Source: the human T2T-CHM13v2.0 reference genome, Homo sapiens. Taken from it: 64,000 nucleotides of DNA. The stretch's first letter is position 1. Every line of letters begins with the position of its first letter. Positions 43,821-59,634 of this stretch are shown here, in pieces. Position numbers and translations under genes: made by a program. The notes below the pieces were generated by a model, which searched no databases, was not told the origin of the DNA, and saw nothing but the letters and a program-made list of their open reading frames with translations. Where the stretch lies: assembly GCF_009914755.1 (NCBI RefSeq), contig NC_060931.1. One strand, given 5' to 3'.

Positions 43821-44266
43821 ACTATTTTTGTCATTATAAATTATCCTGCATTTCTAGAGTATTACACAAATTAAATCACAAAAGTTTGTTTTTTTTTGTC
43901 TGGCTTCTTACACACAGCATAATTATTTTGTGATTCATTCATGTTGTTGCATGCATCAATATCTCATCCTTTTTTTTTCCTGTGGTTAATGGCACTTCTA
44001 TTTACATAGGAGGACTCCCTAAGAGTGAATTGGTTCTGTTCAAATATATGAGGATTCTAAATTTAAACTAAGACGTTGCCAGATTTTTTTTCCAAAGACT
44101 TTACTAATTCATTCATAGTCTCACCAGTCATGTGAGGAAGTACTCTCTTTCCCTGTATGTCCCTGGCAGCAATATGCATTACCAGTCTTTTCATTTTTGC
44201 TTAATATCTCAATTTTAATATTAATTTTCTGACCTACTAGCATATTTTAGTATATTTTTATTGCAC

Positions 44267-50400
<6,134 letters not shown>

Positions 50401-52134: not shown

Positions 52135-54691
52135 TCACTTTTTTTGATTTCCTTTTTTTCTGTGTTTCATTTCGGGTGATTTTCATTGCTATGTCTTCAT
52201 ATATCCTAACCTTTTCTTCTTTAATGTGTATTCTGCCATTAATCTCATCCAGTGTGGTTTTCATCTCAGGCATTGTAGTTTTCATCTCTAGAGTTATATT
52301 TGGGTCTTTTTGTATCTTATATATCTATGCTTAACATACTCATTCTTCCCCCTAGCTTCCTGAGCATATGAAATGCTGTTATAATTACCTTCCTAATATC
52401 CTCATTTGGTCATTTTAATGTGGGTGTCAATTCTATTTCCATTTCAAGTGATTAATTTTTCTCCTTATTATGGATGATGTTTTCTTGCCTCTTTGTATGT
52501 ATGGTAATTTTAAATTATACATCATTTGATTTTGTTGGGTGCAGGATATTTGAGTATCTTTACACATATTTTTGAGCCTTGTTTGGGTTGTGGTTCAATT
52601 CATTTTGTTCTTGCTTTTATCAATTGTTGAGCTTGCTTAGAGCAGAGTTCAGTCTATGGCTGATTATTCACCAGTATTAAAGAAGACCCTTCTGATTACT
52701 CTACCCCAGGCTCCATGAATTATGAGTTTTTTCAGTCTGCCTGGTGGAAATACACACTATTCCCAGCCCCATGTGAGCTCTAACTACTGTTCTCACTCAC
52801 CTTTTCAAGTAGCTCTTTCCTTTGCCTCTGGTAGTTTCTTCAGAAGCATGTGCTGATCAGTACTCAGCTGAATATTCACAGCAGAGGGTACTCTACGTAT
52901 CTCTAGAGTTCTTTCTCTGTGCTGTCTACTTCCTGGTACTATCTTGTGTATGCTAGCCACTGTGGTCTCCCCAGACTCACAGCTTTGTCTCCTTAACACA
53001 AGGATTCTGCTGAGCTGCACTTGGGTTCTCCCTTTCTACACTGAAACCTGGAAGCACTTTTAAGTCAGTAAAACTGGGTTAATTGTAGGACTCACCTCAT
53101 TAGTTTCCCATCTCTTAGAGGTTTCTGGTTTGGGGTTTTTGTTTGTTTGTTAGTTTGTTTTCCCTAATGTTCAGTATCCTGAAAAGTTATTGTTTTATAT
53201 ATATTTTTTTCTATTTCTTATGTTACTATATCAGAGAAGAGAGTAAATTTGTTTTCTATTCCTCCAACTTTGATGAGAACATTGCAAGATTTTAAGGAGG
53301 AAATAACCTGATGGATTTAGAGAAGCATCCAGCCTACAGTATGGAGAATGCTGAGCTCTAGGCAGAGAGAGACAAATGAGAAAGCTGCTGGCCATCAACC
53401 AGGTGAGAAAGCCTGTGTGCTATAGATTGTGTCATCCTGCTTTCCCAGTTATTGACAGTCACCATGATGTGGAGAGGAGGGGGAGGGAGAGAGAGACAGA
53501 GAGAGAGAGATACAGAGAGAAGTTTGATAGGTAATATATAAAAGCGAAATGAACAGAAATTTGTATGGAAAAATTTCATAGTTTAACTTTATGTTGCAAA
53601 AATATATCTACACTTTATTCTGCACATCTTTAATGTATTTCCTCCACCTACTACTTGTTCACAAGGATCTGAAAGACATCACTCCTCATACCAAGCAGAT
53701 GAATAAAAAGAACACTCAGAAAATATATGGATATATGTACAGATAATGAGTTTTTTATTTTCCAAATATTAGACAAGATGGGAATGGAAAGGCAGTTGCC
53801 TAGAATGTGTGTGTTGTGGGTGGAGTGTGTGTGTAGTGAGACGGAGGTTGCTGTGTATGACTCAAAACGAAAAAGCAGTGGAACAGCTAGGTTCCGGGAA
53901 GAGTGGAGGGGAATCAGAATCTTCTCTTTCAAGGATCAGGGCAGAGGGTGGGTGGTAGGGGGTGTGTAAGGGATTTAACACTTGAACTGTCCTAGAGCAT
54001 GAGTTTCACTGAACCACTGCCTACAGACAATGTACCAACCAAGTACCCTGCCATTTTTAAGATCCTGGCAGAGAGTTAAAAATATGGGCAACTTAGATGG
54101 AATTGGAGTTGTGAAGAAAACACTTTGCCCCATTTCAGAGTTGGAATTAGCTCGAACCAACTGGACCTTCCTTCATGTGCTATACCACTACTGCATCTTA
54201 TTACATCTTGTGCTACTACCTATCTGTCTCTCCTCTCTTGGTCCTCCTCAAAAACACCTCATTGCTTTCCTGAAATTTCCATCTTCTTTAATACCAAATG
54301 CTGCTCACAGGAAGCAGTGAAAAGGACTAATAATGCAGTTACCCTAGTTAGACTATGACAGCAATATAGAATAATTCATAAAAAATTGAAGGTCATAATT
54401 ATTAAAAGAGAACTAGGAAAACATAATGACTAGAAACTTTTTTCTATCATTATATTTACATTTGACATTCCTTGGAACACATTCTGAATTCTATATCCCT
54501 TGATCTATACCTTCTTTCCACTGTAGTTCAAAGTCTTATACATGAAAGTTCTTGGTAAATGTTGACAGACACTTATGGAATGGCTTAAGTGAAGCTCTTA
54601 ACATGTCAAAGCCCCATTTTACCTCTGTAAAATTATTCTCTTAACTAATTCTATCCACTGTTTTTTTTAGAAACATAGTATATGCATACTA

Positions 54692-56385
<1,694 letters not shown>

Positions 56386-56542
56386 CATCACCTTAAGAGG
56401 GACATAGAAAAATACAACATGTTGCTTTATAGATTTTGTCCCTGCACCAAGGACAAAAGTGATGTCCCTGATCTGATTTATATTGAAATACATGTGAGCT
56501 ATATGTACATTTAAGAAAGATTAATAAAAACAAGTAAAATTG

Positions 56543-56845
<303 letters not shown>

Positions 56846-56882
56846 TTACCCAATATTTGGTAAATCAGTGAGTGACAGCCAA

Positions 56883-57763
56883 CAGAGCTCACCTATAAAT
56901 CAATCCTGACTGGGTGGGGCCACCTTTGTGGAGAGTTACTGGATTAGGAATTTAATCATTTTGATTGTTCTTGTAATTAGCTAGCAGTCCATTATCATAA
57001 TCTAATCAATCCAAAAGTGGTTGATTATAAAGTGACATGATTATCTTATTTTTTGAAACCCCATTCATAATTTTAAAATCTCTTTTATTTTCTTAATAAA
57101 TTACACAACTACTAAAAAATTCTAAACATTGCATTTAAGTATAGAAAAGCTCAAACACAGCTGTACTTGGAGGGAGAGGATTGCATCAATTCCTGCATTC
57201 CCTGAAGAATCATTATGATTTCAGTAATATCAAATGCAGAAAATGCTGTGTTGAATAACTCTTAAAATACCGTAAGCAGATATGTTGTTCAGAATGGGAT
57301 TTTTTTTGTATTGGTGAAAAATTTTGTGAATTTCTGGACAAAACTATATACAATGCTCCTGTGATTTATGCAATTGCATTTCTCAAACATTATGAAAATT
57401 AAAACAAGCAACAATACTTGTAATTTATAATTAAATAGGGTACAGCCTTGGAAATTGTCAGCATGTTTATCATCCGCTTTCATGTCTGAAGGTCACTGGA
57501 GAGTCCTATGACATGCTTGCAGGTAGCTTAATTGTCTTGGCCATTCTCAATAGCAGCCCCCATTCACTGGGAGAACCACCAGAGCAAACTCCAGATTTTA
57601 AATGAATCCCGACTGGGTGGTGCCACCTTTGTTGACAGTTACTGCTTTAGGTAATTTAATCATCTTGATTGTTCTTGTCAGGAGTTAGGAATCCATTATC
57701 ACAACCTAATCAATCCAGAAGTCAGGAAGTCTCCACCCACTAATTAAGGTGACTCAATATAAA
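56883..57763 (+). promoter_or_regulatory. Putative SSU72L promoter: duplicated ~140-bp module (56883-57018, 57580-57722) with DUX4-type motifs and a TATA box
   Basis: TAATCTAATCA 56998-57008 and TAATTTAATCA 57652-57662. One-mismatch GAATTTAATCA 56948-56958 and CAACCTAATCA 57702-57712. TGACTCA 57750-57756. TATAAA 57758-57763, ~130 bp upstream of the ATG. Confidence 0.7.
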
Positions 57764-57888
57764 CCTGCCTCCTGTGCCTCCACATTAGCTCATTTGGAAG
57801 ACCTGGGTATAGGTGGTCGTCTCCTTGGCTCAGAGTCCCTGCAGCAGCTGAGGTGCCTGTGTCTCTCTTGTTCCCAGTGGCCACCATC

Positions 57889-58473
57889 ATGCTCTCCTCC
57901 CCACTCAGGGTGGCTGTGGTGTGTGTGAGCAACATCAACAGGAGCATGGAGGCCCACAGCATCCTCAGGAGAAAAGGGCTAAGTGTCCGGTCTTTCGGAA
58001 CTGAATCTCATGTGAGGCTACCAGGACGAAGACCCAATCATCCTGTAGTTTACGATTTTGCAACAACATATAAGGAGATGTACAATGACCTCCTCAGGAA
58101 AGATAGAGAATGCTACACCCACAATGGAATCTTACACATCTTGGGAAGAAATGAGAGAATCAAGCCTGGCCCAGAAAGATTTCAGGAATGCACTGAATTC
58201 TTTGATGTCATCTTTACCTGTGAGGAGCGTGTCTATGACACAGTGGTGGAAGATCTGTGTTCCAGAGAACAGCAGACCTTTCAGCCTGTGCACGTGATCA
58301 ACATGGACATCAAAGATACCCTGGAAGGTGCCATCCTGGGAGCTTTCCTCATCTGTGAGATTTGCCAGTGCCTGCAGCAGTCCGACGACATGGAAGACAG
58401 TCTGGAGGAGCTGCTGTTGCAAATGGAGGAGAAGGCAGGAAAAAGCTTTCTTCACACCGTCTGCTTCTACTGA
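57889..58473 (+). CDS. SSU72L6: SSU72-like RNA polymerase II CTD phosphatase, intronless retrogene, 194 aa
   Basis: MLSSPLRVAVVCVSNINRSMEAH...FLHTVCFY is collinear with recalled human SSU72 (194 aa, about 70% identical, no indels or stops). CX5R (C12/R18) and D140/D143 are retained. The symbol (formerly SSU72P8) is assigned from recalled adjacency to an RPS2 pseudogene and is not verified. Confidence 0.9.
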   Translation: MLSSPLRVAVVCVSNINRSMEAHSILRRKGLSVRSFGTESHVRLPGRRPNHPVVYDFATTYKEMYNDLLRKDRECYTHNGILHILGRNERIKPGPERFQECTEFFDVIFTCEERVYDTVVEDLCSREQQTFQPVHVINMDIKDTLEGAILGAFLICEICQCLQQSDDMEDSLEELLLQMEEKAGKSFLHTVCFY

Positions 58474-59008
58474 AGATCTGGGCTGGCTTTGTCTCCTTCC
58501 TCGGTAAGAACTTAGGCATGGGACTTTAGTCCAGATTGATTGTGAGAAGTATCTACAAAGACCTTCCACTGAGTGCTGTTTGTATTACTTTTGTACATAT
58601 CACCTGGAAAGAGACTATTACCAAGAAAATATTTTATGGGAAATGAGAAGGACTAACAGTTTTAAAAGCACTGAAAAATGCTTGGCATTGTTCTACATGC
58701 ATTACATACAATAACTAATTTAATGCTTATATTATTCTACAAGGAAGCTATCCCACCATGACTGCATTTTCCGGATGAGCAAATGGAGCTGATAATGGAC
58801 TGCTGGAAAAATGATTTGTTTAAGGGTATTCAGCAGATAAATAACATTGTATAGATAAGCACCTTTTAAATAGACTTCCTTTTCTCAATTTGAGTGGTTT
58901 TTTTTTTAATTTTTAAATTTTTTAAGTTATTTGAGACCAATGGAGTGTGGTATATTAACTTAAATGTTGTTCTTCTTTAATAAGAGTATAATATTACATG
59001 TTTGAACC

Positions 59009-59178
59009 AATAAATGTTTTCACATATAGATTATATCTTTTTTACTAATGCTCACTTTAATAGGTAAAATCCAAGTTGGATAATGAACTACATATTATTG
59101 TAAAATTTGGAATTATCTACTCAAATAATAGGTCATCAAATTAAATGAAATAAAAAATTTAAATAAAAAAAAAAAAAA
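59009..59178 (+). terminator. Poly(A) signals and genomic poly(A) tail of the SSU72L cassette
   Basis: AATAAA at 59009-59014, 59149-59154 and 59162-59167. A-run at 59165-59178, then the TSD. Confidence 0.75.
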
Positions 59179-59634
59179 GAAAGAAATCCTGTTCCCAGGA
59201 TCTGCAAAGAACACCACAGCAGTTCTACACATCTGCCTCTCCCCCAGTTCCCCTCCCTGGATGGCAGAGATTTTAATATCATTAAAACTAACTTGGATAT
59301 AGTAGAGGGAAGCTCTTAAAACCCTGACACCAGTGTGGTAGGAGATGGTACGTCAATTGACAGATTCGTTACCCAAGAAGAACGTATACATGCATCATGC
59401 TAGGTACAGGGAGAAAACCAAAGTTAGGCAAAGTATTTTGTCCACTTATTATCTATGTCATTTTCATAGCCAGTAGAACCTCTCAGTAAGTCTCCTAGAC
59501 CTGGCCATGCCCACCATGGCCCAACACTCTCTTCGTCCCTGTCAACTCAAGCCTCTCTACGTACCCTCTACTGGGTCAGACCAGTGACAGATCCATTCCA
59601 GTGAGTTGAACAGCAGAACCAAAGGATGGCATTT

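What the first reader, a model, noticed from the sequence alone, without database searches (positions are those of the whole stretch)
57889..58473. Catalytically intact but substrate-loop-remodelled SSU72 paralog
Seen, against recalled SSU72: about 58 of 194 residues differ, with no indel or stop. C12, R18, D143 and the C-terminal FLHTVCFY (symplekin-contacting region) are kept, which argues for purifying selection on the family. Changes cluster at the active site: P-loop CSSNQNR>CVSNINR, substrate flap KLPGPAPDKPN>RLPGRRPNHPV, acid loop DIQDNHEEA>DIKDTLEGA. Established: SSU72 dephosphorylates CTD pSer5/pSer7 and couples to 3'-end processing. Inference: a stage-specific CTD phosphatase with altered specificity, or a symplekin-binding competitor, that could tune Pol II during genome activation.
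Basis: partly seen in the sequence, partly recalled or inferred. Interest (0 to 1): 0.75.

Follow-up and report, generated by a model that had tools for sequence, protein, structure and literature searches.

The report
Embryo-specific SSU72 phosphatase paralog SSU72L6
This is an intact, already annotated copy of the RNA polymerase II tail phosphatase SSU72, from an old mammalian gene family that is switched on by DUX4 in 4- to 8-cell embryos; it keeps its catalytic residues but has a reshaped substrate loop, and its function is untested.

Summary
Window 57889-58473 (+) is an intact 194-codon ORF and a full-length Ssu72-family match. It aligns without gaps to human SSU72, with exactly 58 of 194 residues different. 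C12, R18, D143 and the C-terminal FLHTVCFY are kept.

It is the annotated gene SSU72L6 (formerly SSU72P8), one of seven intact human copies.

What I add:
1. The SSU72L proteins form one strongly supported clade across primates, tree shrew, bat, horse/rhino, carnivores and cetartiodactyls. The loop remodelling is family-wide and old, not special to this copy.
2. Flap 47-51 is the most variable stretch in the family and is invariant in canonical SSU72.
3. The chr7 gene is an RNA-mediated, L1-type copy of a 2.78-kb chr11 segment that brought its own promoter.
4. That promoter carries two DUX4 consensus sites. [quoted passage not shown]

Constraint since the chr7/chr11 split is moderate (pN/pS 0.29-0.41) and cannot be shown for the chr7 branch alone. 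Enzyme activity, substrate preference, symplekin binding and translation remain untested. The C-terminal helix, reported to bind symplekin, is the most substituted part of the protein.

The parts
57889..58473 (+). SSU72L6 coding sequence, 194 codons plus stop, intronless
57835..59182 (+). RefSeq transcript NM_001414004.1, single exon (taken from the hub's annotation, not tested here)
   Evidence: hub annotation. The 3' end coincides with the poly(A) tract seen.
56387..59169 (+). 2.78-kb unit shared with the six chr11 SSU72L loci (promoter, Alu, CDS, 3'UTR). This is the RNA-mediated duplicate.
   Evidence: (93.1-93.4% identity to three chr11 copies over the whole unit)
59170..59178 (+). Non-templated part of the poly(A) tail. 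The A-run starts inside the second AATAAA at 59165. It is absent from all six chr11 copies.
59149..59154 (+). AATAAA polyadenylation signal, 15 nt upstream of the point where chr7/chr11 homology ends. A second AATAAA lies at 59162-59167.
56998..57008 (+). DUX4 consensus site of the 'CT' flavour (TAATCTAATCA), 891 nt upstream of the ATG
57652..57662 (+). DUX4 consensus site of the 'TT' flavour (TAATTTAATCA), 237 nt upstream of the ATG
57702..57712 (+). Near-match to the DUX4 site (CAACCTAATCA), at the position homologous to the distal CT site
56896..57018 (+). Distal copy of a ~124-bp direct repeat in the promoter
   Evidence: families D3 and D4
57599..57722 (+). Proximal copy of the ~124-bp direct repeat in the promoter
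57758..57763 (+). TATAAA, conserved in all seven copies, 72 nt upstream of the annotated TSS
   Evidence: Its role as a TATA box is inferred.
56503..56849 (+). Alu inside the unit, shared with three of the six chr11 copies
   Evidence: The interval comes from the hub's repeat mask.
55017..56386 (+). 5'-truncated L1 3' end (L1b) directly abutting the start of the unit, in the same orientation
   Evidence: Its sister copy L1a carries L1 ORF1 and endonuclease domains.
54696..55006 (+). Alu upstream of L1b. The L1b(+unit) insertion appears nested in its tail and target-site duplication.

Best explanation
SSU72L6 is a genuine protein-coding member of the SSU72-like family. This is an old retrogene family, at least as old as the common ancestor of primates and laurasiatherian mammals. 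[quoted passage not shown]

The family swapped the parent's regulation for a CpG-poor promoter with DUX4 sites, so it is transcribed in a burst at the 4-cell to 8-cell stage. The chr7 copy arose near the base of the catarrhines. An L1-mediated, RNA-based event copied 2.78 kb of a chr11 family member to chr7, including 1.5 kb upstream of the ATG. That is why the copy kept its promoter and its DUX4 response.

Shown: the protein keeps the cysteine-phosphatase residues (C12, R18, D143, P-loop N15/N17/S19).

Inferred: it most likely still hydrolyses phosphoserine on the CTD. Its substrate flap (47-51) has diversified, P-loop side chains 13 and 16 have become hydrophobic, and the C-terminal helix is heavily substituted. 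Its substrate preference, and its coupling to symplekin and hence to 3'-end processing, therefore probably differ from SSU72.
For: Intact ORF and family membership.

Copies in the genome: seven intact human copies, all 194 aa, plus the five-exon parent.

One clade:
- Quick tree: 42 of 95 rows, SH-aLRT 100, stem length 0.26.
- Careful tree: 29 of 64 rows, support 100/100, one branch in 100% of 200 bootstrap trees.

Residues kept in the clade (5 of the 42 rows are human paralogs): C12 41/42, N15 41/42, N17 41/42, R18 40/42, S19 41/42, D143 40/42.

Selection:
- dN 0.20 and dS about 1.0 against the parent, ratio 0.20.
- Canonical SSU72 is almost invariant across amniotes, so nearly all change lies on the SSU72L side.
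- chr7 against chr11: pN/pS 0.29-0.41, binomial p 0.004-0.027.

Flap: positions 47-51 form the top entropy window, 2.14 bits against a mean of 0.80; 18 of 5000 shuffles reach it. The same positions are invariant in 17 of 17 canonical rows.

Promoter:
- The only two matches to TAAYYYAATCA in the 64 kb lie 237 and 891 nt upstream of the ATG, on the gene's strand.
- They are conserved in 6 of 7 copies.
- The motif and its most active flavour are confirmed in PMC4730607.
- CpG observed/expected is 0.07-0.12.
- The promoter is found only at the seven SSU72L loci.

Expression (PMC11735616 Supplementary Table 4 and Fig. 3G legend): SSU72P8 scores DUX4 6.21, 4-cell 2.34, 8-cell 2.25, morula -3.0. SSU72P8 is listed among chr7q genes in PMC6834745, and chr7 holds only one copy.

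RNA-mediated origin:
- Homology is limited to 56387-59169.
- It ends 15 nt after an AATAAA.
- A poly(A) tract follows that all six chr11 copies lack.
Against: - For the chr7 lineage alone there are only about 5-6 derived amino-acid changes and 4-7 synonymous ones. That is too few to show constraint on this copy.
- Total CDS divergence from the closest chr11 copies (4.1%) is not significantly below non-coding divergence (5.7-5.9%; Fisher p 0.11-0.14).
- YN00 gives higher ratios, 0.41-0.58.
- No indel in the CDS is weak evidence: 1.86 were expected, P = 0.16.
- Two chr7-derived changes hit otherwise conserved active-site-loop positions and could impair function: T149I (T in 36 of 42 clade rows) and P47R.
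- I saw no protein-level or ribosome-profiling evidence.
- Reads from seven 92-99% identical copies can cross-map, so the SSU72P8 values may partly reflect the chr11 genes.
- The protein database holds only predicted intact proteins, so decayed copies in other species would not be seen.
Confidence: 0.6

Rival explanations
1. The family is functional, but the chr7 copy is a redundant passenger. It is still transcribed because it carried the DUX4 promoter, but it is drifting, and its ORF is intact by chance.
For: - The chr7 branch alone shows no significant constraint.
- CDS against non-coding divergence is not significant for the nearest copies.
- Absence of indels is only mildly unlikely under neutrality, P = 0.16.
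- Six other copies exist.
- T149I and P47R are derived on chr7 at loop positions.
- DUX4 induction is somewhat lower than for the chr11 copies, 6.2 against 7.2-7.7.
Against: - Pairwise pN/pS of 0.29-0.41 is below 1, with p 0.004-0.027.
- About 5-6 amino-acid changes in 194 codons is under half of what the 5.8% non-coding divergence predicts. That prediction is my own estimate.
- The terminal branch (0.035-0.038) is no longer than those of the monkey sequences.
- S114R restores the parental residue, and D140 is kept where three chr11 copies have E.
Confidence: 0.2
2. The protein acts mainly without catalysis, as a competitor or decoy. It would occupy symplekin or other SSU72 partners, or the CTD, during genome activation and so damp 3'-end-coupled dephosphorylation.
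For: - FLHTVCFY and much of the core are conserved.
- The flap is not conserved. A review (PMC8038829, passages read) describes residues 49-53 as the loop through which symplekin contacts and activates SSU72.
- Burst expression from up to seven genes could give high dosage.
Against: - Conservation of C12, R18 and D143 in 40-41 of 42 family members over roughly 90 million years is hard to explain without catalysis. C12S and D143A kill SSU72 activity (PMC4201287).
- The C-terminal helix said to bind symplekin is the most substituted region. It has 7 of 11 changed in windows within 162-180 and several relaxed positions. That argues against a conserved symplekin interface.
Confidence: 0.12
3. It is not translated. 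It would be a DUX4-driven non-coding transcript or expressed pseudogene, as the old name SSU72P8 implied.
For: - It was annotated as a pseudogene until recently. HGNC's renaming of SSU72P2 to SSU72L2 is given as a biotype change in PMC12807706.
- I saw no proteomic or ribosome-profiling evidence, and supplement access closed.
Against: - Seven of seven copies keep a 194-codon ORF.
- Related intact ORFs persist in many mammalian orders at dS about 1 from the parent.
- Non-synonymous change is depleted.
- RefSeq and HGNC now class the gene as protein-coding (hub annotation).
- The start codon has A at position -3.
Confidence: 0.07

Closest known systems
Human SSU72 (chr1; solved with symplekin and CTD peptides, PDB 3o2q, 3o2s, 4h3h, 4h3k)
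   Same: - Same Pfam family, same length, ungapped alignment, 70% identity.
- CX5RS P-loop, D143 acid loop and C-terminal FLHTVCFY kept.
   Different: - 58 of 194 residues differ.
- Positions 13 and 16 are hydrophobic instead of S and Q.
- The flap (47-51, 53), acid-loop neighbours (142, 144, 145, 147, 149) and the 162-186 helix are changed.
- It is intronless, where the parent has five coding exons.
- Its promoter is CpG-poor and carries DUX4 sites.
- Expression is restricted to the cleavage stage, where the parent is ubiquitous. The cleavage-stage pattern comes; the parent's ubiquity is general knowledge.
SSU72L1-L5 and one further copy in the chr11 cluster (former SSU72P2-P7)
   Same: - 92-94% protein identity.
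- Same 2.78-kb unit, with the promoter and DUX4 sites at the same positions in 5 of 6 copies.
- Same DUX4 and 4-cell/8-cell expression pattern.
   Different: - The chr7 copy lies alone, outside the cluster, and differs by 23-25 nt in the CDS. The chr11 copies differ from each other by 0-7 nt, which suggests gene conversion among them.
- chr7 keeps R114 and D140. All six chr11 copies have S114, and three of the six have E140.
- chr7-derived changes: P47R, R51H, D103E, S114R, T149I.
- chr7 ends in a poly(A) tail; the chr11 copies do not.
DUX4-target, multi-copy cleavage-stage gene families (ZSCAN4, MBD3L2-5, PRAMEF, TRIM43, RFPL4)
   Same: - Listed in the same published table, with the same profile and DUX4 binding near the TSS.
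- Multi-copy and fast-evolving.
- Carries the DUX4 consensus site.
   Different: - It encodes an enzyme of the core Pol II CTD cycle.
- The family is older than primates.
- Its promoter is not a dispersed repeat at the sensitivity.
L1 3' transduction, and processed retrocopies in general
   Same: - An L1 3' end lies directly upstream in the same orientation.
- The carried segment ends at a downstream AATAAA plus a poly(A) tail.
- A-rich short repeats flank the whole insert.
- The definition of 3' transduction is from the abstract of PMC9311842 (search listing only).
   Different: - A whole gene with its promoter was carried.
- None of the six present-day chr11 copies has an L1 next to the start of the unit.
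- The chr11 L1 lying 8.7 kb upstream is not the closest relative of L1b.
- So the alternative stays open: a long unspliced transcript retrocopied into the A-tail of an older L1.

Membership tests
Ssu72 phosphatase family (Pfam PF04722) | Full-length match above the curated cut-off | tested here: met
   283.4 bits against a cut-off of 25.3; residues 6-194 against profile 1-189 of 189
Ssu72 phosphatase family (Pfam PF04722) | CX5R(S) P-loop with the nucleophile Cys12 and Arg18 | tested here: met
   C12 and R18 align to the parent residues. Kept in 41/42 and 40/42 SSU72L rows. C12S is inactive in SSU72 (PMC4201287).
Ssu72 phosphatase family (Pfam PF04722) | General-acid Asp143 in the D loop | tested here: met
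   D143 is present and kept in 40/42 clade rows. D143A is inactive in SSU72.
Ssu72 phosphatase family (Pfam PF04722) | LMW-PTP-like core plus cap subdomain fold | not tested
The fold is inferred only from 70% ungapped identity to solved chains.
Ssu72 phosphatase family (Pfam PF04722) | Phosphatase activity on CTD pSer5/pSer7 with cis-Pro6 recognition | not testable with these tools
   Needs enzyme assays. Flap residues 47-51 differ from the invariant parental ones.
Ssu72 phosphatase family (Pfam PF04722) | Binding to, and stimulation by, the symplekin N-terminal domain | not tested
   No complex job was sent. The C-terminal helix reported to bind symplekin and loop 49-53 are both remodelled. 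The papers with residue-level contacts were not held.
Processed (RNA-mediated) gene copy | Colinear with the spliced parent CDS, no introns | tested here: met
   The 585-nt CDS aligns codon for codon to the five joined parent exons.
Processed (RNA-mediated) gene copy | Poly(A) tail at the polyadenylation site that is absent from the source locus | tested here: met
   For the chr11-to-chr7 step: the A-run follows AATAAA, and all six chr11 copies continue with unrelated sequence.
Processed (RNA-mediated) gene copy | Target-site duplications | tested here: inconclusive
   AAAGAAAT-type repeats flank the [L1b + unit] block. A 13-of-15 match, including the 9-mer GAAATCCTG, flanks the [Alu ... unit] block. 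All are A-rich, so chance is hard to exclude.
L1 3' transduction | L1 3' end immediately upstream in the same orientation, carried segment ending in poly(A) | tested here: met
   L1b 55017-56386 (+) ends in AATAAA plus a 7-A run, directly followed by the unit. L1 identity comes from the sister copy.
L1 3' transduction | A source locus with that L1 next to the carried segment | tested here: not met
   None of the six chr11 copies has an L1 at the start of the unit. The chr11 L1 is 93% identical to L1b, against 95.9% between L1b and L1a. The source may be lost or unfixed.
Direct DUX4 target gene | DUX4 consensus TAAT[T/C][T/C]AATCA near the TSS | tested here: met
   Two strict sites at -237 and -891 from the ATG, the only two in the 64 kb. 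Conserved in 6 of 7 copies. Motif from PMC4730607. The window-wide count alone is not significant: 23 of 100 shuffles give at least 2.
Direct DUX4 target gene | Induction by DUX4, DUX4 occupancy, and cleavage-stage expression | not testable with these tools
   Published only: PMC11735616 Supplementary Table 4 and the Fig. 3G legend. A cross-mapping caveat applies.

The most novel reading that the evidence does not exclude
The SSU72L family is a DUX-programme-specific Pol II CTD phosphatase that has been uncoupled from symplekin and the 3'-end machinery. At genome activation it would erase Ser5P/Ser7P, or act on a new substrate, away from poly(A) sites and so reset Pol II for the first embryonic burst of transcription. 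Its hypervariable substrate flap would reflect recurrent adaptive change, for instance conflict with viruses that exploit DUX4 or SSU72, or tracking of lineage-specific substrates. On this reading SSU72L6 would be a rare case of a whole working gene with its promoter moved between chromosomes by L1 3' transduction.
Probability: 0.15. Interest if true: 0.8.

Novelty: already known. Interest (0 to 1): 0.5.

Why it matters
How the Pol II CTD phosphorylation cycle is set up at human embryonic genome activation is poorly understood. Here a family of up to seven near-identical genes encodes a catalytically equipped variant of a core CTD phosphatase. DUX4 turns the family on exactly at that stage, and it is re-expressed when DUX4 is misexpressed (FSHD muscle, herpesvirus infection).

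I found no paper that discusses the family in its main text. Searches for SSU72L/SSU72P and for SSU72 with DUX4 gave 17 and 3 papers. I read passages in five of the first set and one of the second, and search listings only for the rest. None dealt with this link.

The family's age, the conserved catalytic residues and the focused diversification of the substrate flap make a clear, testable case for a stage-specific enzyme with changed specificity or partner coupling. The chr7 gene also shows how an RNA-based copy can stay regulated: the copy included the promoter.

Tried and rejected
- **Segmental duplication as the origin of the chr7 copy: rejected.** Homology stops exactly at the polyadenylation site and is followed by a poly(A) tail absent from all six chr11 copies.
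- **The chr11 L1 8.7 kb upstream of the unit as the source of L1b: rejected.** L1b is closer to L1a in the window (95.85%) than to the chr11 L1 (93.1-93.5%). Shared-state counts are 58 against 26 and 24.
- **The promoter as a dispersed transposable element: not supported.** The 1039-bp upstream region is found only at the seven SSU72L loci (the tool's counts are lower bounds).
- **Trace of the parent's UTRs: none.** Nothing beyond 28 nt at the end of the CDS.
- **Complex prediction with symplekin: not sent.** At 70% identity to a solved complex, a pass would mostly reflect likeness to that structure.
- **Structural papers not held.** These are the ones that list SSU72-CTD and SSU72-symplekin contacts: PMC3038789, PMC3475799, PMC4296584. 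Contact statements therefore rest on a review and on PMC4201287.
- **Supplements searched:**
  - The 8C-like-cell paper had no SSU72 entries in 4 files.
  - PMC8990217 had only SSU72 itself, in a file cut when stored.
  - Supplement access closed. Proteomic tables, for example those of PMC6349399, could not be checked and may bear on translation.
- **Script misses.** Two scripts for exon joining gave wrong joins and one timed out. One search replaced them.
- **Rows left out of the trees.** From the 120 listed hits I dropped the unnamed and fragmentary rows, leaving 88 database rows plus 7 human rows. A further 31 near-duplicates and long-branch rows were dropped.
Full report
**1. The observation.**
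Window 57889-58473 (+) is an ATG-to-stop ORF of 194 codons. It matches Pfam Ssu72 end to end: E 9e-85, residues 6-194 on profile positions 1-189 of 189. It aligns without a gap to the solved human SSU72 chains 3o2s_B and 3o2q_B.

I rebuilt the parent coding sequence in a script from the five chr1 exons that the genome search returned (exon lengths 80/144/140/119/102 nt). C12, R18, D143 and FLHTVCFY are kept.

The claim that changes cluster at the active site is only marginally supported. In the three loops, 13 of 29 positions differ, against 45 of 165 elsewhere (one-sided Fisher p = 0.049). The densest patch is in the C-terminal helix, with 7 of 11 positions changed in windows within 162-180.

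**2. What it is.**
The hub's annotation names it SSU72L6. HGNC has moved this series from pseudogene (SSU72P) to protein-coding (SSU72L) names (PMC12807706, passage read).

The genome holds the following:
- Seven SSU72L-type loci: this one on chr7 and six on chr11 at 4.30-4.40 Mb, arranged as three convergent pairs. All have open 194-codon frames and are 92-94% identical to the chr7 protein.
- The multi-exon parent on chr1.
- A separate intronless copy on chrX.

SSU72P8 appears in a list of chr7q genes in PMC6834745. chr7 has only one copy, so SSU72P8 is this gene.

**3. Age and selection.**
A search of the protein database returned SSU72-like proteins from many mammals.
- A quick tree used 95 rows: 88 named database rows of the 120 listed, plus 7 human rows. 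In it the SSU72L proteins form one clade of 42 rows, with SH-aLRT 100 and a stem of 0.26 changes per site.
- A careful tree used 64 rows. The 29 SSU72L rows sit on one branch with support 100/100 and in 100% of 200 bootstrap trees.
- The clade holds primates (human, Old World monkeys, Cebus, lemurs, lorises), tree shrew, a bat, horse and rhinoceros, carnivores and cetartiodactyls. Its inner branching roughly follows the species tree. The family therefore dates at least to the common ancestor of these groups.
- SSU72-like proteins from rodent, lagomorph, afrotherian and marsupial species fall outside the clade and look like separate copies.

Canonical SSU72 is almost invariant from fish to human (end branches 0-0.02). 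Nearly all divergence is therefore on the SSU72L side.

Rates (NG86 unless stated):

| Comparison | Result |
|---|---|
| chr7 vs parent | dN 0.20, dS about 1.0, ratio 0.20 |
| chr7 vs chr11 copies | 23-25 nt differ of 582; pN/pS 0.29-0.41; binomial p 0.004-0.027 |
| chr7 vs chr11 copies, YN00 | ratio 0.41-0.58 |

Limits of this evidence:
- With monkey sequences as outgroups, the chr7 branch carries about 5-6 amino-acid changes: P47R, R51H, D103E, S114R, T149I and perhaps D147G. It carries roughly 4-7 synonymous changes. That is too few for a test on this copy alone.
- CDS divergence from the nearest chr11 copies (4.1%) is not significantly below non-coding divergence (5.7-5.9%; p 0.11-0.14).

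**4. What changed in the protein.**
This comes from the 42 clade rows, 5 of which are human paralogs.
- **Kept:** C12 41/42, N15 41/42, N17 41/42, R18 40/42, S19 41/42, D143 40/42, D140 35/41, and the FLHTVCFY tail.
- **P-loop:** positions 13 and 16 are S and Q in all 17 canonical rows. In the family they are M/V and M/I/V.
- **Flap:** positions 47-51 are invariant in canonical SSU72. In the family they form the most variable 5-residue stretch: 2.14 bits against a mean of 0.80, and 18 of 5000 shuffles give any window as high.
- **Family-wide shifts:** R29K, N53V, K73R, M84I, K89E, N100E, L107V, I162L, Q177L. Many positions in helix 160-186 are relaxed.

From the literature:
- C12S and D143A abolish SSU72 activity, and the C-terminal coiled-coil region binds symplekin and HIV-1 Tat (PMC4201287, passages).
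- A review states that symplekin contacts loop 49-53 and activates the enzyme (PMC8038829, passage).

Both reported symplekin-related regions are among the most altered in SSU72L. I infer that the chemistry is kept while substrate reading and symplekin coupling have changed. This is not shown. From recall and untested: low-molecular-weight tyrosine phosphatases carry hydrophobic residues at the equivalent two P-loop positions, so those changes need not harm catalysis.

**5. How the chr7 gene arose.**
- chr7 and chr11 share only window 56387-59169 (93.1-93.4% identity to the three Alu-bearing chr11 copies).
- At the 3' end the shared sequence stops 15 nt after an AATAAA. chr7 then has an A-run, while all six chr11 copies continue with unrelated sequence. 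That marks an RNA-mediated copy.
- The copy begins 1.5 kb upstream of the ATG and includes an Alu that three chr11 copies share. The template was therefore a long unspliced RNA that contained the promoter.
- Its 5' end abuts the 3' end of a 5'-truncated L1 in the same orientation (L1b, 55017-56386, ending in AATAAA and seven A). Short A-rich repeats flank the L1b-plus-unit block. L1 identity rests on the sister element L1a, which is 95.85% identical and has L1 ORF1 and endonuclease domains.

Two models fit:
- L1 3' transduction of the downstream gene. I favour this, at about 55%.
- A retrocopy that landed in the A-tail of an older L1, at about 35%.

For the date, the tree places the chr7 copy after the Cebus split and near the Old World monkey sequences (supports 98/81 and 90/62). 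Together with 5.7-5.9% non-coding divergence, this points to roughly 20-40 million years ago. The rate used for that figure is recalled.

**6. Regulation.**
- The 1-kb upstream region occurs only at the seven SSU72L loci.
- It is CpG-poor, with observed/expected 0.07-0.12, against 0.62 in the parent CDS.
- It contains a ~124-bp direct repeat and a conserved TATAAA.
- The only two matches to the DUX4 consensus in the 64 kb lie here on the gene's strand: TAATCTAATCA at 56998 and TAATTTAATCA at 57652. A near-match lies at 57702. The window-wide count alone is not significant (23 of 100 shuffles give at least 2), and the two sites sit in a duplicated element.
- The sites are conserved at the same positions in 6 of 7 copies.

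Published values for SSU72P8 (Supplementary Table 4 of PMC11735616):

| Condition | Value |
|---|---|
| DUX4 overexpression | 6.21 |
| HSV-1 infection | 2.99 |
| Oocyte | 2.11 |
| Pronucleus | -1.66 |
| Zygote | -1.19 |
| 2-cell | -0.86 |
| 4-cell | 2.34 |
| 8-cell | 2.25 |
| Morula | -3.0 |

SSU72P2-P7 behave alike, with DUX4 values of 7.2-7.7. The Fig. 3G legend says the embryonic values are normalised per gene and the DUX4 and HSV-1 values are relative to mock. It also says the genes shown have DUX4 binding sites within -1000/+500 bp of the TSS. Cross-mapping among the copies is a caveat.

**7. Comparison with what is known, and novelty.**
The gene, its family name and its coding status are in RefSeq and HGNC. 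Its DUX4 and 4-cell/8-cell profile is in a published supplementary table. The object is therefore already known.

I found no paper that discusses the family's function or its link to DUX4 in the main text. I read passages in five of the first set and one of the second, and listings only for the rest. PMC13732488 mentions SSU72L1-5 only as genes with SVA_B elements nearby.

New here, as far as these searches show:
- the single old clade;
- the focused hypervariability of the flap against conserved catalytic residues;
- the remodelling of both reported symplekin-related regions;
- the L1-mediated, promoter-carrying origin of the chr7 copy.

**8. What stays open.**
Translation, enzyme activity, substrate preference, symplekin binding, population constraint and the state of ape orthologs are all untested. 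Three gaps in access bear on this:
- The primary structural papers were not held.
- Supplement access closed before proteomic tables could be checked.

Noticed in passing
L008 (own genome chrX 112798712-112799287, +): A second, independent intronless SSU72 copy on chrX, also with an open 194-codon frame. It is closer to the parent (43 aa differences, dS 0.47, dN/dS 0.23) and falls outside the SSU72L clade. Its P-loop reads CWNNQNQS, so the catalytic arginine (R18) is replaced by Q. That makes it a possible pseudo-phosphatase or a slowly decaying copy.
   Followed up: partly
L002-L007 (own genome chr11 4.298-4.404 Mb): This assembly holds six intact chr11 SSU72L copies, arranged as three convergent pairs. 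A paper on the same kind of assembly names only SSU72L1-L5, and the older series has six chr11 names, P2-P7. All six copies have R114S and three have D140E next to the acid loop. The copies differ from each other by only 0-7 nt in the CDS, although their upstream regions fall into an Alu-bearing and an Alu-less type. That suggests gene conversion of the coding part.
   Followed up: partly
window 44240-49156 (-) and 55017-56386 (+): Two L1 pieces in opposite orientation, about 6 kb apart, are 95.85% identical over the shared 1.37 kb. That is closer than either is to an L1 of similar type on chr11 (93%). Both end in an A-run followed by GAAAGAAA. I could not tell whether they are sibling insertions or an inverted duplication.
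   Followed up: partly
window 54681-54695 and 59177-59191: A 15-nt stretch matches at 13 of 15 positions (including the 9-mer GAAATCCTG) just before the Alu at 54696 and just after the gene's poly(A). A shorter AAAGAAAT-type repeat follows the Alu tail at about 55000. This fits an Alu target-site duplication later split by the L1b(+unit) insertion, but all the repeats are A-rich.
   Followed up: partly
P0002-P0005 (database proteins, unnamed sources): Four 204-aa database proteins, 93-94% identical, begin 10 codons upstream at what is a GTG in the window. That looks like a bacterial-style start call on short human-like contigs. One combines the chr7-type leader with chr11-type residues in the body.
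   Followed up: no
window 57744-57962 (-): A 72-codon ORF lies on the opposite strand across the start of the gene. Nothing suggests it is more than chance.
   Followed up: no
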